A DNA stretch of 64,000 nucleotides, taken from the sequence record ON286972. One strand, 5' to 3'. Of this stretch, positions 44,925-51,461 are shown one piece after another. The first letter of the stretch is position 1. The number at the start of each line of letters is the position of its first letter. The DNA is from Escherichia phage A4. The position numbers and the translations under genes are program-made. The notes under the pieces are model-generated. The model searched no databases, was not told the origin of the DNA, and saw only the letters and a list, made by a program, of their open reading frames with translations.

Positions 44925-45857
44925 ATGCCAACTATTACACTAACAGTTGGATTGCCAGGATGTGGTAAAACCACGTGGGCAGTGCAAGAAATTAAAAAAG
45001 CAAAGTCCAAGACTATCAACATCAATCGTGATGATATTCGAGAGTCTATGGCTGGGTCACATGATGCTTATAAATTCACTGATGCGAACGAGAAGTACGT
45101 AACTAATCAACAGTTCAGTGCAGCAAACGCAGCAGCAGCGAATGGATGGAACATTATTGTGTCCGATACGAACCTGAAACAAGGTTTTCGTGATGAATGG
45201 AAACGTTGGGCTAAAGATAATGGCTACGACTACAAAGAAAAGAACTTCTACGAAGATTTTGTACCGAATGAAGACCGTGGTGCAGATGTTCATGAATTCT
45301 TTAAGATTAAGGAATTCGTGAAGCTCTGTAAGAAACGCAACCTTCTTCGTGTGCGTTCAGTACAAGATGAAATCATTGACACTATGGCAGATACGTACTA
45401 TTATAGTAAGGCGATGCACATTGGTTACTATGGTAATGCACGTGAAGCTGCTATCATTGTTGATATCGACGGTACTCTTGCTCATAAGTGGGGACGTAAC
45501 CCGTTTGATGAAAGTACTGTCCTTCAGGATACACCAGATGAAGAAGTAATTCTGTCTGTCATTGCTGAGGCTGTTTTCCATAAGCGTAAGGTAATCGTCA
45601 TGAGTGGGCGTACTGAAGGGTGTCGTGCTGATACTGAACAGTGGCTTAAGAATTGGGGCATTCCCTACGATGTATTGTTAATGCGAGCTATCGATGATAA
45701 ACGTCCTGATGATGTTGTCAAATTCGAGTTGTATATGAATAACGTTGTTAATCATTACGATGTTAAGAAAGTATTTGATGACAGGGCCGCCGTTGTATTC
45801 ATGTGGCGTAAGCTACTAGGCTTGAAAGTATTTCAGGTGGAACCTGGACTATTTTGA
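44925..45857 (+). CDS. pseT: polynucleotide 5'-kinase/3'-phosphatase
   Basis: Walker A GLPGCGKTTWA, INRDD kinase motif, phosphatase DxDGT motif (VDIDGTLA), C-terminal KVFQVEPGLF collinear with T4 Pnk as recalled. Confidence 0.9.
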   Translation: MPTITLTVGLPGCGKTTWAVQEIKKAKSKTININRDDIRESMAGSHDAYKFTDANEKYVTNQQFSAANAAAANGWNIIVSDTNLKQGFRDEWKRWAKDNGYDYKEKNFYEDFVPNEDRGADVHEFFKIKEFVKLCKKRNLLRVRSVQDEIIDTMADTYYYSKAMHIGYYGNAREAAIIVDIDGTLAHKWGRNPFDESTVLQDTPDEEVILSVIAEAVFHKRKVIVMSGRTEGCRADTEQWLKNWGIPYDVLLMRAIDDKRPDDVVKFELYMNNVVNHYDVKKVFDDRAAVVFMWRKLLGLKVFQVEPGLF

Positions 45858-45865
45858 TTATTACA

Positions 45866-45895
45866 AAGGGATCAGTACTGATCCCTTTTCTTTTA
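45866..45895 (+). terminator. rho-independent terminator
   Basis: Palindrome AAAGGGATCAGT/ACTGATCCCTTT followed by a T-run. Confidence 0.6.
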
Positions 45896-45909: not shown

Positions 45910-46170
45910 ATGGATAATAGTTATGATGTACATTTCAAACAATGCCAGTTGGTTTTACACTCCCTAATGGAAGAGTTGCGAATCAAGTACATAGGCAAAA
46001 TTGCTACATGTTTATCAACTGGAAGACGTGGGCAAATTGTAGAGATTTATTATTCTCCACTTAGTGATGAAATTAAAATAAAAGCTAAAATATTCCTAAC
46101 TGGATCTAACAATTTCTTGGGTGAACATATGGTAAAAATTATCTCTGAATTATCGATAACGGATGAATAA
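45910..46170 (+). CDS. hypothetical small protein, YIGK-motif paralog family
   Basis: ..LRIKYIGKIATCLSTGRRGQIVEIYY. Confidence 0.5.
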   Translation: MDNSYDVHFKQCQLVLHSLMEELRIKYIGKIATCLSTGRRGQIVEIYYSPLSDEIKIKAKIFLTGSNNFLGEHMVKIISELSITDE

Positions 46171-46172
46171 AC

Positions 46173-46439
46173 ATGAATATTAATATAGATTTCCAATTTG
46201 TTAATTCACATATTCAAGTACTGAAAAATTTAGTAAAGCAACTATCAGAAAAATATAAAGATACATATGTTAAATGTGTTTATGATACAAGTGACTGGGA
46301 ACGCATTATTAAAATTGATTCAGTATATCTTGATACTAACAATAATATAGTTGTATCTGGCGTTGATATGTATGGGCATAGATACCAATTCACAACGCGA
46401 GCAACAATAACTACAGTGGATGGATATGAATACGAATGA
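46173..46439 (+). CDS. hypothetical small protein, YIGK-like
   Basis: ..LSEKYKDTYVKCVYD. Confidence 0.45.
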   Translation: MNINIDFQFVNSHIQVLKNLVKQLSEKYKDTYVKCVYDTSDWERIIKIDSVYLDTNNNIVVSGVDMYGHRYQFTTRATITTVDGYEYE

Positions 46440-46725
46440 ATTCCAAGCATTATTGAAAACATTATATCTTCTTAAAGAAGAATCTCTTGCAATGTATAAT
46501 GAAAAACAATACAAGTTTGAAGAACAACTCATTCATTTTCATGATGAATATCTTGCCTTTTTGAATAAAAAATACTCAAATGTTCAGTGCAAATATCGAG
46601 GTAGTGATGTTATTATTACCGAAATAGAATCAAGTACTTACGGATATCCATACCTTTGTTGCAAATATATCCCAAGTGATATAACATTTCGCTCAAGAAT
46701 ATATTCGAGGTTTATTTTTTCATGA
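46426..46725 (+). CDS. hypothetical small protein, YIGK-like
   Basis: ..FLNKKYSNVQCKYRGSDVIITEIE; start adjusted. Confidence 0.45.
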   Translation: MNTNEFQALLKTLYLLKEESLAMYNEKQYKFEEQLIHFHDEYLAFLNKKYSNVQCKYRGSDVIITEIESSTYGYPYLCCKYIPSDITFRSRIYSRFIFS

Positions 46726-47003
46726 ATAATGATTCATTGAAGTTTTTTTATTATCATTATCGTATTTTACGCAGTTTATATTTTTCAGAATCCGATGAAA
46801 GATTACTAACATCATTATCAGTACTGATGGATAATTACGAGAACGAATTGTCTAAATTGGTTTTTGGTGTCAATGTTCTAGATGATACCGATTTAACATG
46901 GACAATTATTGAAGTGGCGACCTGGAATGGTAATATTTTGTACAGGTGCGAACGAGCAGGTTTTTTATGGGATGCCACATATGACGAAATTAGAATTGTA
47001 TGA
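46722..47003 (+). CDS. hypothetical small protein, YIGK-like
   Basis: ..LSKLVFGVNVLDD. Confidence 0.45.
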   Translation: MNNDSLKFFYYHYRILRSLYFSESDERLLTSLSVLMDNYENELSKLVFGVNVLDDTDLTWTIIEVATWNGNILYRCERAGFLWDATYDEIRIV

Positions 47004-47280
47004 CAGGCAAGTGAAATTGATAAGAGATACTCGTCGTTTCTTTCATACTCAATTAGTAGATCCATGTTATGATATTTCCGATTTCCTTGAAACCTATCTC
47101 CTTGATCTAACTACACCACTGCTTAAAAAATACGTAGGCACAAAAGCTATATATCTTGGAAGAGAAGTTGAAATTACCAACATATCATATTCTTATGGGG
47201 CATACATGTATACGGCAAAATCTGATAATGGACAAAGATATTATGCAATACGATCAAGAGAACTTACGATTATTGGATAG
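46981..47280 (+). CDS. hypothetical small protein, YIGK-like
   Basis: ..LLKKYVGTKAIYLGREVEITN; start adjusted. Confidence 0.45.
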   Translation: MTKLELYDRQVKLIRDTRRFFHTQLVDPCYDISDFLETYLLDLTTPLLKKYVGTKAIYLGREVEITNISYSYGAYMYTAKSDNGQRYYAIRSRELTIIG

Positions 47281-47572
47281 GCATCTTGCTATTCTTATCG
47301 ACCTTGTGATGGAAAGTGATGTAAAAATTTTTGAAAGTAGATTTCTTGAGGATTATAAAACTGAATTGCAAGAACTGTACAAAGGTAAAAAAGTATTACT
47401 TAGTACTGGTGACTATGGTAAAATTGAGTACGTGTATTATGAATGGAAAAAGGTTATATATTTTATAAAAACCAAAATAAAATACCAAAATAAAACAAGA
47501 ACCTATAAAGCATATTACGATTCAAATGAGATAGAGATTATATATGACCAACACGTTAATAACAAAAAGTGA
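47243..47572 (+). CDS. hypothetical small protein, YIGK-like
   Basis: ..LQELYKGKKVLLSTGDYGKIEY; start adjusted. Confidence 0.45.
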   Translation: MQYDQENLRLLDRHLAILIDLVMESDVKIFESRFLEDYKTELQELYKGKKVLLSTGDYGKIEYVYYEWKKVIYFIKTKIKYQNKTRTYKAYYDSNEIEIIYDQHVNNKK

Positions 47573-47867
47573 ATTAGATTATTTGAATTATATAAACAGA
47601 TACTTTCTGATTCTATATAATATACTTCTTGAAGAACAATGCACTAAATCAAACCATCAGTTATATAACTATATTAACTGTATAATTAGTGAAATATATG
47701 AATCATTGGAAAAGAGATTTAAGTACAGAACTATTAAGTGCGAAGATGATATTGTATATATTCATGGTGTTTTTGGTACAGGATATGGAATATTCGTTGA
47801 TTATAAAATACACCCATTTGATCCGTACATAGAAAATAGTATGTACATAGAAGAGATTGAACTATGA
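47544..47867 (+). CDS. hypothetical small protein, YIGK-like
   Basis: ..LEKRFKYRTIKCEDD. Confidence 0.45.
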   Translation: MTNTLITKSELDYLNYINRYFLILYNILLEEQCTKSNHQLYNYINCIISEIYESLEKRFKYRTIKCEDDIVYIHGVFGTGYGIFVDYKIHPFDPYIENSMYIEEIEL

Positions 47868-48181
47868 CACAAGAAGAATATAATAAATTAATAATGTACG
47901 AGAATCATTTTAATTATTGTCTGAAATGGTTATTGTACATTGATAACGTTGAGATGGATATGTACAGAAAAGAGGTGAATAAACGTGTTAAAGATTTCTA
48001 TTACGAATTGACTGATCTTTTTTATAATAATGTAGTATATGAAGCAAATACCAGTCGTGATTATGACCTTTATATCAAGCAAATATGGGGTACTGACTAC
48101 GGTCTGATGATTGATTGCAGTACTGGTCCTAATATAGACAGACCCAGTACTACATTGTATCTGGATGAGATTTTCATATGA
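47864..48181 (+). CDS. hypothetical small protein (array member)
   Basis: ORF in array, ATGA overlap. Confidence 0.45.
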   Translation: MTQEEYNKLIMYENHFNYCLKWLLYIDNVEMDMYRKEVNKRVKDFYYELTDLFYNNVVYEANTSRDYDLYIKQIWGTDYGLMIDCSTGPNIDRPSTTLYLDEIFI

Positions 48182-48480
48182 ATGAACTATTACTTTGTCA
48201 TAAAACATACATTATGCTATTCAGAACGTGCCATGATATGCGAATTGAAGGTATACTAGACTACCCAACTATGATGATTAACTTCAGGGTGTTAATGGAT
48301 TCATATTCACAATCTGTCATTGATGCATTTGAAGGTAGAGAAATAAAGTTCAAAAATGCCAGGACAAATAATGAGCTATGTGATACAATTAAATCAGTGG
48401 GGATTTCGGTTCCAAATGTGTACGTAATCCCATTGATGTACGGAAGAGTAGTATCCACTAACGAAATTATTAGTATATGA
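48178..48480 (+). CDS. hypothetical small protein (array member)
   Basis: ORF in array. Confidence 0.45.
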   Translation: MNELLLCHKTYIMLFRTCHDMRIEGILDYPTMMINFRVLMDSYSQSVIDAFEGREIKFKNARTNNELCDTIKSVGISVPNVYVIPLMYGRVVSTNEIISI

Positions 48481-48776
48481 TTAAAATATTATATGAAGCA
48501 GAAGAAACATATAAACTTCTGTGGGAAACTTTTATTTTTGACAAATACTATAATAGAACTGAATGGTTAGAGGTAAGTAAAATATATCTTCAAATTTTAA
48601 ATGATTATTTTTGTCCGTTCGTTGCTGAATGTAAAAATAATCCAATTGAAGAAATTAATATAATCGAAATAGTAGATGGGTTTGGTGCGTGGTTGATATA
48701 CCAAGACAACTATCACTTTTCTAATTATATCGAAGATATCGGTAAAATAATTGTAATTAAAGGAGTCATACTATGA
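48477..48776 (+). CDS. hypothetical small protein (array member)
   Basis: ORF in array. Confidence 0.45.
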   Translation: MIKILYEAEETYKLLWETFIFDKYYNRTEWLEVSKIYLQILNDYFCPFVAECKNNPIEEINIIEIVDGFGAWLIYQDNYHFSNYIEDIGKIIVIKGVIL

Positions 48777-49378
48777 TTTATGCACTATACGTACTATACG
48801 TACTTGGTCTGGTTATTGGTTGGTTTTTGGCAAAATCTTACAACCGTAATGCACTGGCATACACAGTATTTGGTATTATTTTTACGCCAGTACTAGAACT
48901 AGGTTTACTCATTATTATGGGTCGCCGTGACATGACACCAGTCATTGACGATAATCGTGATAAAGCAGTACATGATGTACCCGTTTTTGAAGGATATACG
49001 CCAACTTTAACAGTTGATGACGTTTACATTGATGGTGCTGAAGAAGTTAAATCAGTTCAGGAAGAAGTTGAAGAAGTTCCAGTTAAAGAAGAACCACAAC
49101 CAAAAGCACCAACAACTAAAACAAAAGCAAAAACTTCTAAGAAAACGAAAGGTCGCAAGACTAGCACTAAAAATACCAAAAAAACCAGTACAACTCGCAA
49201 AAGCACTAAAACTGATAAGGAAGCATCTTCCAGTACTGATGATGGTACAAGCACTGTTCTACTGACAGCAGCAACAACTGCCGCAATTATCAGTACTTCA
49301 TCCTATAGCGACTCATCTTCCTCTTATGATAGTGGCTCTTGTGATAGTTCAAGCTCAAGTTCAGGAAGCTGTGATTAA
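48773..49378 (+). CDS. membrane-anchored low-complexity protein (acidic, K/T-rich and S/C-rich segments)
   Basis: Two N-terminal hydrophobic helices, then EEVKSVQEEVEEVPVKEEP, TKTKAKTSKKTKGRKTSTK, and SSSYDSGSCDSSSSSSGSCD. Confidence 0.5.
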   Translation: MIYALYVLYVLGLVIGWFLAKSYNRNALAYTVFGIIFTPVLELGLLIIMGRRDMTPVIDDNRDKAVHDVPVFEGYTPTLTVDDVYIDGAEEVKSVQEEVEEVPVKEEPQPKAPTTKTKAKTSKKTKGRKTSTKNTKKTSTTRKSTKTDKEASSSTDDGTSTVLLTAATTAAIISTSSYSDSSSSYDSGSCDSSSSSSGSCD

Positions 49379-49722
49379 TGGTTCCGTTATCATCTGAACT
49401 AAGGTACTTCGAATCTCTCCTTGATCTTCAATCAGAATTCGTTAGTGCCTTAAAAAATAAATTAATAGGCAAAAAAGTAAAATTCACTCAAGAGTATATT
49501 GACCACATCAATAAGGCTAAGGAGGATGAAGTAGATTCTGACTGGATTTATTGTGATGATGAAGCTTCTCATATCAACGAAAATACAGTTATGTTTATTA
49601 CTTTGTTGCGAGTAAAGAATTCATCAATCTATGTTGATGTGGAATATGAAAATCCAAAAAGTTCTGAATGGTACGGATTCACTTACCGTTTAGATCGTTT
49701 AGAACTAATAGAAGAGGAATAA
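49378..49722 (+). CDS. hypothetical small protein, YIGK-motif paralog family
   Basis: ..LKNKLIGKKVKFTQEY. Confidence 0.5.
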   Translation: MVPLSSELRYFESLLDLQSEFVSALKNKLIGKKVKFTQEYIDHINKAKEDEVDSDWIYCDDEASHINENTVMFITLLRVKNSSIYVDVEYENPKSSEWYGFTYRLDRLELIEEE

Positions 49723-49965
49723 ATGATTTTATTTTTTGCTTTGTATGGTGTAGGAGTACTGAGTACATTTTTGAGTACTTTTCTTATCATCAATTGGGGT
49801 TCTTTTAAAGATACCCCTACCACAATGATTAATATTAGTACCTGCTCTATGTTATCAGTACTGTGGCCTGTGTCGTTGGTGTATCTTTTCATTTCAATCT
49901 GTAAAGATTTTTACGATACACTAACAAAATTCAAGAAGAAGAAACATGACAAAGACGGAAATTGA
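49723..49965 (+). CDS. small membrane protein
   Basis: 80 aa, two or three hydrophobic helices, basic C-terminus. Confidence 0.45.
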   Translation: MILFFALYGVGVLSTFLSTFLIINWGSFKDTPTTMINISTCSMLSVLWPVSLVYLFISICKDFYDTLTKFKKKKHDKDGN

Positions 49966-50200
49966 ACAGTTAAAGATGTTACAATCGTTATCTGATGATT
50001 TTGTCCAACGTGCTAAGCACAAATATATTGGTCAAGAAATTCTTCTTAAACACTCCAGAGGTTGGCAAAAAATATGCATAAGAGATATGGGAACATATCA
50101 TGGTGATGTGCGATATTACGTAGATTGCTATGTTAATGACCAAATTGCCAATACTCAAGTTGTCACCTATGATAAAATTATATGGATTAAAGAACAATGA
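49946..50200 (+). CDS. hypothetical small protein, YIGK-motif paralog family
   Basis: ..RAKHKYIGQEILLKH. Confidence 0.5.
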   Translation: MTKTEIEQLKMLQSLSDDFVQRAKHKYIGQEILLKHSRGWQKICIRDMGTYHGDVRYYVDCYVNDQIANTQVVTYDKIIWIKEQ

Positions 50201-50940
50201 AACATTTCTTAGAAGTAACAGTTCCTGATGAAAAAGATTTGTATATAGTAGGAGACATTCACGGTAATGCAAAACTATGGGAACATACCAAGAAAGAATT
50301 TGGTATTACTCCTGAAGATTATGTATTCAGTTTAGGCGATTTAATTGACAGAGGTGAGCAAAGTGCTCACCTTTTGTTTGAGTTTTTATTCGCTGAGAAT
50401 CGATATATGATCATGGGCAATCATGAATCGATGTGTATTGATTCTGCAACTCATCGTGACTGGTATCATTGCTGGACACAGAATGGGGGCGATAAGTTCC
50501 TGGAAGAAGTTGGTGTATCAGGAGTGGAATTCTTCCGTCAGTACTTGGACCAGCTACCTATGATTATCCAAATCAATCACAGAGGACTCAAGATTGGTCT
50601 TGTACATGCAGGTGTAGATCTGAAGTACAATGACTGGAATAAGTTCATTACTGGGACAAAATCAATGTCCAGTGATACAATTGAGTCATGCCTATGGGAC
50701 AGAAAGACATTTGATTTCTGTAAAGCCAACAACGTCTTTAATGCATCACGTATTACCAACGTAGATTATGTACTTAGTGGGCATACTGCCGTGTTTGATC
50801 CCCTCATTTATGGTAACCGTATCTGGATTGACAGTCAGTTTCTTACTGGTGATTTGACTATTGCTACCCCACAAGGTGGTAAGATGCGTTATTTGCGTAA
50901 AGAAAAAGACGAATATTCATTTAGTCGATTCAAAAGGTAA
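50197..50940 (+). CDS. Ser/Thr protein phosphatase-like metallophosphoesterase
   Basis: GDIHG, GDLIDRG and GNHE calcineurin-like motifs. Confidence 0.75.
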   Translation: MKHFLEVTVPDEKDLYIVGDIHGNAKLWEHTKKEFGITPEDYVFSLGDLIDRGEQSAHLLFEFLFAENRYMIMGNHESMCIDSATHRDWYHCWTQNGGDKFLEEVGVSGVEFFRQYLDQLPMIIQINHRGLKIGLVHAGVDLKYNDWNKFITGTKSMSSDTIESCLWDRKTFDFCKANNVFNASRITNVDYVLSGHTAVFDPLIYGNRIWIDSQFLTGDLTIATPQGGKMRYLRKEKDEYSFSRFKR

Positions 50941-50945
50941 TTATT

Positions 50946-51224
50946 ATGCATGACATGATTGATAGTGCATTAACCGAATTTAACTTTTTTAAAAAATCAC
51001 TCGATGCAATAATCAATGATACCAACCAACAAATGAAAGACCATTTAAGTGATAAATTGGTTGGTCGTTGGGTTGAGCTACCATATATAGATGGAACTAC
51101 TGTTGGTGTGATTCATAGAATTGTAACAATTCATGAAGTGAAGGTGTATGTTGAAATTCTGGTTGACAATGAAACTAACAAATGTTTTGTACAATTAAGT
51201 ACTGAAGATTTAACTTTTTTATAA
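50946..51224 (+). CDS. hypothetical small protein, YIGK-like
   Basis: ..LSDKLVGRWVELPYIDG. Confidence 0.45.
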   Translation: MHDMIDSALTEFNFFKKSLDAIINDTNQQMKDHLSDKLVGRWVELPYIDGTTVGVIHRIVTIHEVKVYVEILVDNETNKCFVQLSTEDLTFL

Positions 51225-51233
51225 GGATATAAA

Positions 51234-51461
51234 ATGAAAGTAATTTATGTTCAGGTTGAAAAATATCAAACTGAAGATGGTCGCATTTTTGATTCAGCTA
51301 AACAAGCTGAGCATCATGAACGTATTATTTCTGGTGTTCGTCGCATTTGTCCTAAATGTAACGGAACACAACAAGTTCCCGATGAAGAATTTCGTCGCTA
51401 TTATGCATGTCCAGATTGTGATGGTAAAGGATATGTAGAAAAACAAGAGGTATGGAAGTGA
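51234..51461 (+). CDS. DnaJ-type zinc-finger small protein
   Basis: Two CxxCxGxG motifs (CPKCNGTQ, CPDCDGKG). Confidence 0.5.
   Translation: MKVIYVQVEKYQTEDGRIFDSAKQAEHHERIISGVRRICPKCNGTQQVPDEEFRRYYACPDCDGKGYVEKQEVWK

What the first reader, a model, noticed from the sequence alone, without database searches (positions are those of the whole stretch)
48773..49378. Membrane-anchored protein with acidic, histone-like K/T-rich and Ser/Cys-rich tail segments
Two N-terminal hydrophobic helices are followed by an acidic segment, a Lys/Thr-rich stretch resembling a linker-histone tail (TKTKAKTSKKTKGRKTSTKNTKKTSTTRKSTK), a short hydrophobic stretch and a Ser-rich end with Cys pairs (SGSCDSSSSSSGSCD). 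I do not recognise this composition as a standard holin or spanin. The antisense and alternative-frame ORFs here (49014..49265, 49057..49254) are probably low-complexity artefacts.
Basis: seen in the sequence. Interest (0 to 1): 0.4.

Follow-up and report, generated by a model that had tools for sequence, protein, structure and literature searches.

The report
Membrane-anchored phage protein with Mrh.1-type tail
This is a real gene of a jumbo E. coli phage that encodes a membrane-anchored, otherwise unstructured protein; its serine-rich, two-cysteine tail also occurs on the uncharacterised early protein Mrh.1 of phage T4, and nobody knows what that tail does.

Summary
**Observation: confirmed.** ORF 48773..49378 (+) encodes a 201-residue protein with five segments:
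- two N-terminal hydrophobic helices
- an acidic block (net -13)
- a Lys/Thr-rich basic block (net +15)
- a short Ala/Thr/Ile patch
- a Ser-rich tail ending ...SYDSGSCDSSSSSSGSCD*

**The gene is real.**
- Only this frame is open in all six orthologues.
- Indels against a 95%-identical relative are in frame.
- Tail Ser codons switch between AGY and TCN while the residue stays Ser.

**What it is.**
- The window comes from a relative of the Asteriusvirus jumbo coliphages (121Q/PBECO4).
- The gene is syntenic in those phages and in Rak2-like Klebsiella phages (phrog_29057).
- The protein is modular. A widespread two-helix membrane anchor, usually fused to zinc ribbons or SHOCT domains, carries about 150 disordered residues.
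- Those residues end in a portable tail also found on T4 Mrh.1 (Pfam DUF7206) and on rV5-like phage proteins.
- Of 120 such tails, 118 end in Cys-Asp, all have exactly 2 or 4 Cys, and none has Lys or Arg.

**Most likely role (inferred, not shown).** It is an early, non-virion accessory protein that holds this Cys-Asp tail at the cytoplasmic face of the inner membrane, where the tail chelates a metal, exchanges thiols or binds a conserved partner. It is not a holin, a spanin or a histone relative. Interest is moderate.

The parts
48760..48765 (+). Shine-Dalgarno-like AAGGAG, 7 nt upstream of the ATG
   Evidence: Read from the sequence.
48773..49378 (+). Coding sequence, 201 aa plus TAA stop. 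Its start overlaps the stop of the upstream ORF (ATGA) and its stop overlaps the start of the downstream ORF (TAATG).
   Evidence: Orthologues are syntenic in JNE01, PBECO4, phAPEC6, the GCA_012813795.2 contig and Klebsiella phage RCIP0023. It matches phrog_29057 at E 1e-16 over its full length.
48776..48838 (+). Helix 1 of the membrane hairpin (residues 2-22)
   Evidence: AlphaFold2 helix 2-22; hydropathy 2.18.
48851..48919 (+). Helix 2 of the membrane hairpin (residues 27-49), carrying the conserved T/S-P motif and followed by G-R-R
   Evidence: AlphaFold2 helix 27-49; phrog_9201 match over residues 6-52; A20, R25, P39 and G50 are invariant in the family.
48929..49102 (+). Acidic Val/Pro/Glu-rich linker (residues 53-110, net -13), predicted disordered
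   Evidence: An acidic block sits at the same relative position in all jumbo-phage orthologues.
49103..49213 (+). Basic Lys/Thr-rich block (residues 111-147, net +15), predicted disordered
   Evidence: A basic block of +7 to +8 per 15 aa is conserved in all orthologues, typically as KKARYTKGKNK.
49214..49306 (+). Ser/Thr/Ala-rich segment holding the hydrophobic patch TVLLTAATTAAIIST (residues 148-178). This is the first part of the module shared with the Mrh.1-type proteins. It is not a transmembrane-grade segment.
   Evidence: Maximum hydropathy is 1.05 and AlphaFold2 predicts no helix there. It aligns with the T-A-A-A-V patch of the Mrh.1 proteins.
49307..49375 (+). Ser-rich acidic tail SDSSSSYDSGSCDSSSSSSGSCD (residues 179-201). 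It has two Cys-Asp dipeptides (TGT GAT at 49340-49345 and 49370-49375) and no Lys or Arg.
   Evidence: S184-Y185-D186-S187, S189, D191, S193-S196 and S199-C200-D201 are invariant in the family. Ser codons switch between AGY and TCN among orthologues. hhalign to the Mrh.1 family gives probability 98.1% and E 1e-13. Tail statistics over 120 relatives are.
49014..49265 (+). Alternative-frame ORF (83 aa) inside the gene; not a gene
   Evidence: The open stretch in this frame varies from 49 to 84 codons among orthologues, and codon-position GC fits frame 1.
49057..49254 (-). Antisense ORF (65 aa) inside the gene; not a gene
   Evidence: Its length is not conserved among the orthologues.

Best explanation
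The gene encodes a modular accessory protein of a jumbo coliphage. Its position in the genome suggests early expression.

Shown:
- Residues 2-49 form a two-helix hairpin belonging to a widespread membrane-anchor module.
- The remaining ~150 residues are predicted to be disordered. In order, they are an acidic block, a basic Lys/Thr block, a short Ala/Thr/Ile patch, and a Ser-rich tail with two Cys-Asp dipeptides, the last at the very C-terminus.
- That tail, with the patch, is a portable module also found on proteins without any membrane span: T4 Mrh.1 (DUF7206, phrog_2031) and rV5-like phage proteins (phrog_17348).

Inferred:
- The hairpin has both ends in the cytoplasm, so the disordered chain acts as a leash of ~150 residues holding the tail at the inner face of the inner membrane.
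- The Mrh.1-type proteins probably reach the same place through a conserved N-terminal amphipathic helix (M-I-x-W-L-K-N-L-F).
- The working part is the tail. The conserved even number of Cys, each followed by Asp, in a spacer free of positive charge suggests paired thiols that either chelate a metal ion or undergo dithiol-disulfide exchange. Through them the tail would bind a partner that is conserved in Enterobacterales or in large myoviruses.
- The basic block may add affinity for anionic lipid or nucleic acid.

The protein would therefore be a host-takeover or accessory factor, not a lysis or virion protein. Its target is unknown.
For: **Real gene under protein-level selection.**

**Synteny.** The gene sits between the polynucleotide kinase and the NinI-like phosphatase in Asteriusvirus and in Rak2-like Klebsiella phages.

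**Hairpin module.**
- It matches phrog_9201.
- The exhaustive HMMER search gave 277 hits, most of them to residues 1-55 only.
- Of 140 relatives with the hairpin motif, 50 carry CxxC...CxxC zinc ribbons after it, 18 carry SHOCT-like ends, and 16 are the hairpin alone.
- K+R in the flanks exceeds K+R in the loop in 97 of 128 relatives, equals it in 27 and is lower in 4.
- Both points favour a cytoplasmic C-terminal part.

**Disorder.** pLDDT is below 50 for residues 52-111, for 130-186 and for further short segments.

**Tail module.**
- The same C-terminus occurs in T4 Mrh.1, IME08 mrh.1, GAP31_237, KLB31 and Kc304.
- hhalign gives probability 98.1%.
- The window protein matches phrog_17348 at 9.7e-8, and P0005 matches it at 2.5e-7 over residues 64-223.
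- P0149 is a full DUF7206 member at 2e-30.

**Tail statistics over 120 cluster representatives.**
- 118 end in C-D and 2 in C-N.
- 117 have exactly 2 Cys in the last 30 residues and 3 have 4.
- Asp follows Cys in 237 of 246 cases.
- None has K or R in the last 30 residues.
- 113 have no Cys elsewhere.
- None has a transmembrane-grade segment (maximum hydropathy 1.29), so the shared tail works in the cytoplasm unless these proteins are exported by unknown means.

**Cys pair kept when moved.** PBECO4-type orthologues lost the first S-C-D but gained a Cys 6 residues upstream, which keeps the count at two.

**N-terminus of the Mrh.1 type.** It is conserved and amphipathic, with median hydrophobic moment 0.64; 25 of 39 distinct N-termini beat 95% of shuffles.

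**Expression and location.**
- T4 mrh.1 RNA is classed as early (PMC9697503, supplementary file 4).
- The phAPEC6 orthologue gp366c is not among the 62 virion proteins found by mass spectrometry (PMC7247149, Table 1).

**No shared neighbour.** No neighbouring gene is common to the three phage lineages.

**Motif restricted to phages.** The pattern [SY]SSYDSGSC has only 5 unconfirmed matches in 596 Gb of bacterial and archaeal genomes.
Against: - No experiment or paper addresses any member of the family, so the function is pure inference.
- The topology argument is indirect. The hairpin loop itself carries about 1.8 positive charges. Two relatives, P0047 and P0121, have signal-peptide-like N-termini and large N-terminal parts that would place the loop inside and the C-terminus outside.
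- One uncultured relative with the same architecture, P0052, has a tail with no Cys (...SSSYDSGSSYSSSSSD), so the thiols are not indispensable everywhere.
- The amphipathic-helix test was not significant for several N-termini.
- Homology scores on Ser-rich sequence are inflated by composition. Pfam DUF7206 scores the window protein at only 11.3 bits against a cut-off of 25.6, and a tail-only profile found nothing significant in 5.8 billion proteins.
- T4 Mrh.1 protein was not detected in the T4 proteome time course.
Confidence: 0.45

Rival explanations
1. Three-span topology with a periplasmic tail. The Ala/Thr/Ile patch (residues 160-175) would be a third membrane span, with the basic block inside and the acidic, Lys/Arg-free tail outside, where the two Cys form a DsbA-made disulfide. 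The protein would then act on the envelope, for example in superinfection exclusion.
For: - The order 'basic block, hydrophobic stretch, tail without positive charge' fits the positive-inside rule for an in-to-out span.
- An even number of Cys (2 or 4) in every tail is what disulfides require.
- Early membrane proteins of T4, Imm and Sp, do exclude superinfecting phage (established knowledge).
Against: - The patch reaches a hydropathy of only 1.05 and AlphaFold2 does not predict a helix there.
- None of 120 Mrh.1-type proteins carrying the same tail has a segment above 1.29 or a signal peptide. T4, Kc304 and GAP31 have hardly any hydrophobic patch at all.
- There is no match to the Imm family.
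Confidence: 0.15
2. Membrane-DNA tether. The Lys/Thr-rich block would bind DNA non-specifically, as a linker-histone tail does, and the hairpin would fix phage or host DNA to the inner membrane. This is analogous to phi29 p16.7, which organises membrane-associated replication (analogy from established knowledge).
For: - The block has net charge +15 over 37 residues and is the strongest basic block among the window's 128 ORFs.
- A basic block is conserved in charge in all jumbo-phage orthologues.
- The gene lies among nucleic-acid enzymes: a polynucleotide kinase, and a DNA ligase in RCIP0023.
Against: - The basic block is the least conserved part in sequence and is weak or absent in the Mrh.1-type proteins; T4 Mrh.1 has 3 K+R in total.
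- The best-conserved element is the acidic tail, which this model does not explain.
- There is no DNA-binding domain.
- Lys-rich segments next to membrane anchors also occur on unrelated membrane proteins such as P0144.
Confidence: 0.12
3. Self-associating low-complexity scaffold. The opposite-charge blocks plus the S-Y-S-rich tail (SYSDSSSSYDSGS), which resembles the [G/S]-Y-[G/S] motifs of phase-separating low-complexity domains, would drive clustering or condensation at the membrane.
For: The charge pattern is blocky (-13, then +15) and is conserved in the orthologues. About 150 residues are disordered. Tyr residues embedded in Ser are conserved in the tail.
Against: The idea rests on composition alone and no tool here tests it. 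The strict conservation of the two Cys-Asp dipeptides and of the exact C-terminus points to a specific site, not to bulk composition.
Confidence: 0.08
4. Lysis protein: a class II-like holin or antiholin, with two spans and a charged cytoplasmic C-terminus.
For: The protein has two N-terminal spans followed by a highly charged C-terminal part.
Against: - No holin family matches it.
- At 201 aa with a 150-residue tail it is larger than typical holins.
- No endolysin or spanin gene lies nearby. The gene sits in a run of small genes between a polynucleotide kinase and a phosphatase.
- The hairpin module is mostly bacterial and fused to zinc ribbons or SHOCT domains.
- The tail is shared with T4 Mrh.1, an early transcript.
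Confidence: 0.04
5. Not a gene: an ORF that happens to stay open in low-complexity DNA.
For: The region is low in complexity and overlapping ORFs exist in other frames.
Against: - Orthologues are conserved and syntenic across Asteriusvirus and Rak2-like phages.
- Indels are in frame, and Ser codons switch class while the residue is kept.
- Codon-position GC is periodic, a ribosome-binding site is present, and the gene is translationally coupled to its neighbours.
Confidence: 0.01

Closest known systems
T4 Mrh.1 (NP_049642.1, UniProt P20706) and its family, Pfam DUF7206 (PF23836) / phrog_2031
   Same: The C-terminal module is the same: a short Ala/Thr/Val patch, then a Ser-rich, Lys/Arg-free acidic tail with two (in T4, four) Cys-Asp dipeptides, the last at the C-terminus. 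Both families are mostly disordered, belong to phages of Enterobacterales, and have no known function.
   Different: Mrh.1-type proteins are 100-150 aa with no membrane span. They start with a conserved amphipathic motif, M-I-x-W-L-K-N-L-F, and contain an E-Y-V-Y-M-G-D-G-M-M-E-E-V hairpin. The window protein has an integral two-helix anchor instead, plus much stronger acidic and basic blocks. It scores below the Pfam cut-off.
rV5-like (Vequintavirinae) proteins such as Cronobacter phage GAP31 gp237 and Escherichia phage 4MG X824_gp033; phrog_17348
   Same: A basic middle region, a Ser/Thr-rich stretch and the ...SYSSCDSSSSYSGSCD* tail. The curated profile matches the window protein over residues 101-201 at E 9.7e-8. 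It matches the Klebsiella orthologue P0005 over residues 64-223.
   Different: These proteins have no membrane hairpin. Their N-terminus is of the M-G-K-F-F-K-W-L-A-G type, followed by a helical region. The genomic neighbourhood is different.
Two-helix membrane-anchor module (phrog_9201, phrog_25625; for example RB49p211 and many bacterial zinc-ribbon or SHOCT proteins)
   Same: Residues 6-52 match this module: loop motif A-x-x-x-N/G-R-S/N, S/T-P in helix 2, and G-K/R after it.
   Different: Those proteins carry other C-terminal parts such as zinc ribbons, SHOCT domains or helical domains, or nothing at all. No function is established for the module itself.
phi29 p16.7, a membrane-anchored non-specific DNA-binding protein (analogy from established knowledge, not tested here)
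   Same: An N-terminal membrane anchor with a cytoplasmic part that could bind nucleic acid; a phage-encoded early protein.
   Different: p16.7 has a single span, a coiled coil and a folded dimeric DNA-binding domain. The protein here has no folded domain and only a Lys/Thr-rich block. No sequence relation was seen.
Linker histone H1 C-terminal tail
   Same: The composition of residues 111-147 is similar: Lys, Thr/Ser, Ala and Pro, with no acidic residues.
   Different: There is no winged-helix globular domain, no Pfam linker-histone match and no homology. The resemblance is compositional only.
Class II holins
   Same: Two N-terminal spans followed by a charged C-terminal part.
   Different: There is no family match, no lysis-cassette context, a far longer tail, and an anchor module that is common in non-lytic bacterial proteins.

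Membership tests
phrog_29057 (Asteriusvirus PBECO4 gp117 family) | Full-length match to the family profile | tested here: met
   E 1e-16, residues 7-201 against profile 9-209 of 209. PBECO4 gp117 itself scores 1.9e-144.
phrog_29057 (Asteriusvirus PBECO4 gp117 family) | Same genomic position: downstream of the polynucleotide kinase and a run of small ORFs, upstream of the NinI-like phosphatase | tested here: met
Pfam DUF7206 (PF23836; T4 Mrh.1) | Score at or above the curated gathering cut-off (25.6 bits) | tested here: not met
   11.3 bits, E 0.55, only profile positions 44-107. The orthologues P0002 and P0004 reach 20.7 and 18.7 bits.
Pfam DUF7206 (PF23836; T4 Mrh.1) | Conserved N-terminal motif M-[IRF]-x-[WF]-[LIF]-K-x-[LF]-[FA] | tested here: not met
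   The motif is present in 120 of 120 family representatives. The window protein starts with a membrane hairpin instead.
Pfam DUF7206 (PF23836; T4 Mrh.1) | Central E-Y-V-Y-M-G-D-G-M-M-E-E-V beta-hairpin | tested here: inconclusive
   The local Mrh.1 profile aligns window residues 84-100 (VYIDGAEEVKSVQEEVE) to this region, but with low posterior probability. hhalign aligns only the last 33 columns.
Pfam DUF7206 (PF23836; T4 Mrh.1) | C-terminal Ser-rich, Lys/Arg-free tail with two Cys-Asp dipeptides, the second at the C-terminus | tested here: met
   Window tail ...SYDSGSCDSSSSSSGSCD*. Family statistics are. hhalign gives probability 98.1% and E 1e-13.
phrog_17348 (rV5-like GAP31 gp237 family) | Match to the family profile | tested here: inconclusive
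   Only the C-terminal part matches: residues 101-201 against profile 92-164 of 164, E 9.7e-8. The N-terminal half of the profile is not matched.
Two-helix membrane-anchor module (phrog_9201) | Match over the whole ~50-residue module, including the loop Arg and the S/T-P motif of helix 2 | tested here: met
   E 3e-6, residues 6-52 against profile 6-52 of 55. R25 and P39 are invariant. AlphaFold2 predicts helices 2-22 and 27-49.
Holin | Match to a described holin family | tested here: not met
   No holin family appears in the Pfam or PHROG results.
Holin | Location in a lysis cassette next to an endolysin or spanin | tested here: not met
   The neighbours are small ORFs of unknown function, a polynucleotide kinase and a Ser/Thr phosphatase.
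Holin | Membrane permeabilisation at a programmed time | not testable with these tools
   This requires expression and lysis assays.
Spanin (i-, o- or u-spanin) | A lipobox Cys after a signal sequence, or a single N-terminal span followed by a periplasmic coiled coil | tested here: not met
   There is no Cys before residue 190, there are two spans, and no coiled coil or other helix is predicted after residue 49.
Linker histone H1 | Winged-helix globular domain (Pfam Linker_histone) | tested here: not met
   No such hit at E up to 1. No folded domain is predicted.
T4 Imm superinfection immunity protein (Pfam Imm_superinfect) | Match to the family profile | tested here: not met
   The family is not among the Pfam hits at E up to 1.

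The most novel reading that the evidence does not exclude
The 'two Cys-Asp' serine tail is a portable effector peptide that three unrelated lineages of large enterobacterial myoviruses (T4-like, rV5-like, Asteriusvirus/Rak2-like) each hold at the cytoplasmic face of the inner membrane. They do so by different means: an amphipathic helix in two lineages and an integral hairpin in the third. There the paired thiols capture a metal or a redox or membrane-proximal host factor. That would make it a new class of early host-takeover or counter-defence device, with T4 Mrh.1 as its model-phage member.
Probability: 0.25. Interest if true: 0.65.

Novelty: new variant of a known kind. Interest (0 to 1): 0.4.

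Why it matters
- **It gives a handle on an unstudied T4 early gene.** mrh.1 and its Pfam family DUF7206 have no known function. The work here identifies the conserved working part: a C-terminal tail with two Cys-Asp dipeptides, kept across about 130 sequence clusters. It also shows that jumbo phages attach the same tail to a true membrane anchor.
- **It makes a concrete hypothesis testable in T4.** The hypothesis is a membrane-tethered cytoplasmic thiol or metal tail, and T4 genetics is easy.
- **It shows that a strange-looking ORF is a selected gene.** The ORF is low in complexity but under clear protein-level selection, which is a useful caution for annotating the many unknown genes in jumbo phages (83% of predicted proteins in phAPEC6; PMC7247149).
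- **The practical impact is modest until a target is found.**

Tried and rejected
- **Megablast** of 3.5 kb around the gene against 50,697 phage records found no match. The phage itself is not in that collection at about 85% identity or more, and only protein-level relatives are.
- **A tail-only profile** (A3) against 5.8 billion proteins gave 8000 candidates and none significant. The module is too short and too low in complexity for a whole-database search.
- **The search for related loci on viral contigs** matched 360 stretches with A1 but confirmed only one by tblastn, a contig of 348,532 bp, the same length as the phage 121Q record. With A6 it matched 18 stretches and confirmed none. The low-complexity filter probably blocks confirmation.
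- **The genome-contig scan** for [SY]SSYDSGSC gave 5 unconfirmed stretches. There is thus no sign of a bacterial protein carrying that exact motif. Looser mimicry could not be tested.
- **Database searches** of Pfam, NCBIfam and PDB sequences returned only sub-threshold compositional hits such as Coilin_N, TFIIF_alpha, calnexin and fibronectin-binding protein. I rejected these as low-complexity noise.
- **Fold searches were not run.** Both AlphaFold2 models have pTM of 0.25 or less and disordered tails, so any match would be meaningless.
- **The promoter and terminator scan** found no more sites than in shuffled sequence.
- **Literature.** Nothing was found on DUF7206 or mrh.1. The AV110 'Emp' (Gp94) preprint was checked because it screened early T4-like proteins, but Gp94 lies next to motA and is a different, folded protein, and mrh is not mentioned.
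- **A link to the neighbouring Ser/Thr phosphatase** (tail as its substrate) was considered. Adjacency is direct only in Klebsiella phage RCIP0023, and no phosphatase is annotated near mrh.1 in T4 or in the GAP31 locus. I did not pursue it.
- **A shared partner gene** next to the tail-bearing gene was looked for in the three lineages and not found.
- **A second copy** of either module in the window was looked for and not found.
Full report
**1. The observation**

A hydropathy and charge scan shows five segments.
- Residues 1-52 hold two hydrophobic stretches, with 19-residue means of 2.18 and 2.20.
- Residues 53-110 are acidic (17 D+E, 4 K+R).
- Residues 111-147 are a Lys/Thr block (15 K+R, no D/E, 17 S+T).
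- Residues 148-178 are a Ser/Thr/Ala segment with the patch TVLLTAATTAAIIST (maximum hydropathy 1.05).
- Residues 179-201 are a Ser-rich tail with Cys190 and Cys200, each followed by Asp.

Among 128 + strand ORFs of the window, this one is the extreme outlier for a basic block (+15; median 3) and for serine density (16 in 25 residues; median 4; next 8).

**2. It is a real gene in this frame**

- The third codon position has GC 0.23, against 0.47 at positions 1 and 2.
- AAGGAG lies 7 nt before the ATG.
- The start overlaps the upstream stop (ATGA), and the stop overlaps the next start (TAATG).
- Frame +1 is the only frame open over the full length in all six orthologues. The alternative-frame open stretches vary in length, so the ORFs at 49014..49265 and 49057..49254 are by-products.
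- Against a 95%-identical relative the indels are 3, 9 and 9 nt.
- In the tail, Ser codons switch between the AGY and TCN classes among orthologues while the residue stays Ser. Selection therefore acts on the protein, not on a DNA repeat.

**3. Genomic setting**

- The region has no megablast match among 50,697 phage records.
- The neighbouring phosphatase (50197..50940) is 76-78% identical in protein to that of the Asteriusvirus jumbo coliphages JNE01, PBECO4, 121Q and phAPEC6.
- The closest relative of the protein (P0001, 95%) lies on a 357,761-bp contig filed under E. coli (GCA_012813795.2).
- Orthologues occupy the same position in JNE01, PBECO4, phAPEC6 and the Rak2-like Klebsiella phage RCIP0023. 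That position is after a polynucleotide kinase and a run of small ORFs, and before the NinI-like phosphatase.
- They form phrog_29057, of unknown function.
- All genes in this region are on one strand and closely packed. The consensus promoter and terminator scan was no better than shuffled sequence.

**4. The protein is modular**

An exhaustive profile search of 1.84 billion representatives returned 277 hits.
- Only about six cover the full length.
- Nearly all the rest match residues 1-55 only.
- Two (P0050, P0149) match only the C-terminal 60-70 residues.

*(a) The N-terminal module* is a two-helix hairpin. AlphaFold2 predicts helices 2-22 and 27-49 and nothing else.
- It has a conserved loop (A-x-x-x-N/G-R-S/N), an S/T-P motif in helix 2 and a G-K/R exit.
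- It corresponds to phrog_9201 and phrog_25625.
- In 140 relatives it is followed by CxxC...CxxC zinc ribbons (50), by SHOCT-like ends (18) or by nothing (16).
- Phage RB49 has it on a different C-terminal domain.

*(b) The C-terminal module*, the patch plus the tail, recurs on proteins with no membrane span.
- P0149 is a full-length member of Pfam DUF7206 (2e-30).
- tblastn places that family at gene mrh.1 of T4-like phages.
- T4 Mrh.1 ends ...VHVWAGDSCGSSCDSSCSSTSCD*.
- IME08 mrh.1 ends ...AAAVSSWTGDSSYSSYDSGSCDSSSSSCD*.
- rV5-like GAP31 gp237 ends ...SYSSCDSSSSYSGSCD*.
- Profile-profile comparison of the jumbo-phage family with the Mrh.1 family gives probability 98.1% and E 1e-13 over the last 33 columns.
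- The independent PHROG profile of the rV5-like family (phrog_17348) matches the window protein over residues 101-201 at 9.7e-8. It matches the Klebsiella orthologue over residues 64-223.
- These scores are helped by composition. Pfam's own DUF7206 model gives the window protein only 11.3 bits against a cut-off of 25.6. I therefore claim a shared module, not family membership.

**5. Anatomy of the tail across relatives**

A search with the Mrh.1 alignment found 139 clusters, on T4-like contigs of about 170 kb and rV5-like contigs of about 148 kb. Statistics over 120 representatives:

| Feature | Count |
|---|---|
| End in Cys-Asp | 118 (the other 2 end in Cys-Asn) |
| Exactly 2 Cys in the last 30 residues | 117 |
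| Exactly 4 Cys in the last 30 residues | 3 |
| Asp following Cys | 237 of 246 |
| Cys-Cys spacing | 6-10 residues |
| Lys or Arg in the last 30 residues | 0 of 120 |
| No Cys anywhere else | 113 |

- In the jumbo-phage family the same holds.
- PBECO4-type proteins have lost the first S-C-D but gained a Cys six residues upstream, which keeps two Cys.
- One uncultured relative with the same overall architecture (P0052) has no Cys in its tail.
- The peptide pattern [SY]SSYDSGSC has only five unconfirmed matches in 596 Gb of bacterial and archaeal genomes. SSYDSGSC has 18 matches in the viral contig collection.
- Hosts of the T4-like carriers are Escherichia, Klebsiella, Shigella, Enterobacter, Citrobacter, Serratia, Salmonella and Erwinia.

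**6. Where the tail sits**

Four lines of evidence favour the cytoplasm.
- None of the 120 Mrh.1-type proteins has a transmembrane-grade segment (maximum hydropathy 1.29) or a signal peptide.
- In T4, Kc304 and GAP31 the hydrophobic patch is nearly absent, so the patch is not a conserved span.
- Zinc ribbons, the commonest partner of the hairpin module, are normally cytoplasmic (established knowledge).
- K+R in the flanks exceeds K+R in the loop in 97 of 128 hairpin relatives.

The evidence is indirect. The loop itself carries about 1.8 positive charges, and two relatives with signal-peptide-like N-termini (P0047, P0121) would have the opposite orientation.

**7. A second route to the membrane?**

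- The Mrh.1-type proteins share a strikingly conserved N-terminus: M-[I/R/F]-x-[W/F]-[L/I/F]-K-x-[L/F]-[F/A].
- Its hydrophobic moment has a median of 0.64 and beats 95% of shuffles for 25 of 39 distinct N-termini. A first test on seven sequences was mixed.
- Short N-terminal amphipathic helices of this type are membrane-targeting sequences in SepF, Noc and MreB (established knowledge, recalled, not tested here).
- If that holds, two unrelated devices, a peripheral helix and an integral hairpin, deliver the same tail to the same place. That would explain why the jumbo-phage version replaced the N-terminus.
- AlphaFold2 on the Mrh.1 family gives only isolated elements and a disordered tail: helix 3-8, a beta-hairpin 28-42, helices 55-78 and 84-91, pTM 0.25. 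I therefore ran no fold searches.

**8. Timing and location in the life cycle**

- T4 mrh.1 RNA is classed as early, and its protein was not detected (PMC9697503, supplementary file 4). T4 Mrh.1 has only three Lys+Arg, which makes tryptic detection unlikely.
- The phAPEC6 orthologue gp366c is not among the 62 virion proteins found by mass spectrometry (PMC7247149, Table 1).
- No neighbouring gene is shared by the three lineages, so the tail-bearing gene seems to act without a dedicated, linked partner.

**9. Most likely mechanism**

*Shown:* a membrane hairpin, about 150 disordered residues, and a portable tail that is strongly conserved.

*Inferred:*
- The tail is held at the cytoplasmic face of the inner membrane.
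- An even number of Cys, each paired with Asp, in a spacer free of positive charge fits paired thiols that chelate a metal (Cys and Asp are both ligands) or cycle between dithiol and disulfide.
- Flexible C-terminal Cys pairs that shuttle reducing equivalents are known from class Ia ribonucleotide reductase (recalled analogy, not tested).
- Through this site the tail would bind a partner conserved in Enterobacterales or in large myoviruses.

I put 0.45 on this overall picture and much less on any specific chemistry.

Rivals:

| Rival | Confidence |
|---|---|
| Periplasmic tail, with the patch as a third span and a structural disulfide | 0.15 |
| Membrane-DNA tether through the basic block | 0.12 |
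| Self-associating low-complexity scaffold | 0.08 |
| Holin | 0.04 |
| Artefact | 0.01 |

**10. Comparison with what is known, and novelty**

- The gene is an orthologue of annotated hypothetical proteins (phrog_29057), so the sequence family is not new.
- New here is that the protein is recognised as a chimera of a generic membrane anchor and the Mrh.1/DUF7206-type tail. The tail's defining features are also described here: two Cys-Asp dipeptides, a terminal C-D and no positive charge.
- It fails three of the four DUF7206 criteria I could test or partly test: the score cut-off and the N-terminal motif are not met, and the central hairpin is inconclusive. It is therefore a new variant that shares one module, not a member.
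- It is not a holin, a spanin, an Imm-type protein or a histone relative.
- No paper in the library mentions DUF7206 or T4 mrh.1.

**11. Verdict**

This is a sound observation and a real, selected gene. The new and unexpected result is its link to a T4 gene of unknown function. The mechanism remains hypothetical. Interest 0.4.

Noticed in passing
window 45910..48776 and 49378..51224: The gene is embedded in a run of a dozen tightly packed + strand ORFs of about 85-115 aa with overlapping stops and starts. Only weak pairwise similarity links some of them: 47544 with 47864 at E about 2e-5, and 49378 with 49946 at E about 5e-3. This suggests an array of fast-diverging small paralogues. Similar arrays flank the orthologues in Asteriusvirus and in RCIP0023.
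   Followed up: partly
window 49723..49965: An 80-aa ORF two genes downstream looks like another small membrane protein, with hydrophobic stretches and a KKKKHDKD end. No gene is called at this position on the NCBI contig (L003), and a minus-strand ORF was called there on the Logan contig (L004).
   Followed up: no
window 44925..45857 and 45865..45888: A 310-aa polynucleotide kinase/phosphatase-type gene (AAA_33 plus HAD_PNKP in the orthologue) is followed directly by the best terminator-like hairpin of the region (10-bp stem, then a T run). The run of small ORFs starts just after it.
   Followed up: no
window 51234..51461: A 75-aa protein with two CxxC pairs (CPKC...CPDC). The orthologue carries a weak Pfam Anti-TRAP hit. 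It is conserved next to the phosphatase in the relatives.
   Followed up: no
L003 (GCA_012813795.2, contig AATHYQ020000001.1, 357,761 bp): The closest relative of the window (95% protein identity for this gene) is a contig of jumbo-phage size deposited as an Escherichia coli assembly. Neither it nor the window has a megablast match in the phage collection, so this may be an undescribed Asteriusvirus-like lineage.
   Followed up: partly
P0052 (199 aa, uncultured): It has the same hairpin, acidic, basic and Ser-tail architecture, but the tail has no cysteine (...DHSSSYDSGSSYSSSSSD*) and is rich in His. It is a natural Cys-less variant that any thiol-based model must explain.
   Followed up: no
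L002 3453..4082 (PBECO4 gp117) and L016 1453..2070 (phAPEC6 gp366c): In the PBECO4 group the first S-C-D of the tail is S-S-D and a new Cys appears six residues upstream (DSCSYDSSSSD...SCD*). The count of two Cys is kept even though the position moved.
   Followed up: partly
L009 2686..3027 (T4 mrh.1): T4 and two close cluster representatives carry four Cys in the tail (DSCGSSCDSSCSSTSCD*) instead of two. T4 Mrh.1 has only 3 Lys+Arg in 113 residues, which may explain why proteomics did not detect it.
   Followed up: partly
P0144 (269 aa): A multi-span membrane protein from the representative library ends in a Lys/Thr-rich stretch (KKSKTTSTTKKTSETKKTTTTKKTTKKTSS...) much like residues 111-147 here. 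Such stretches therefore recur on otherwise unrelated membrane proteins.
   Followed up: no
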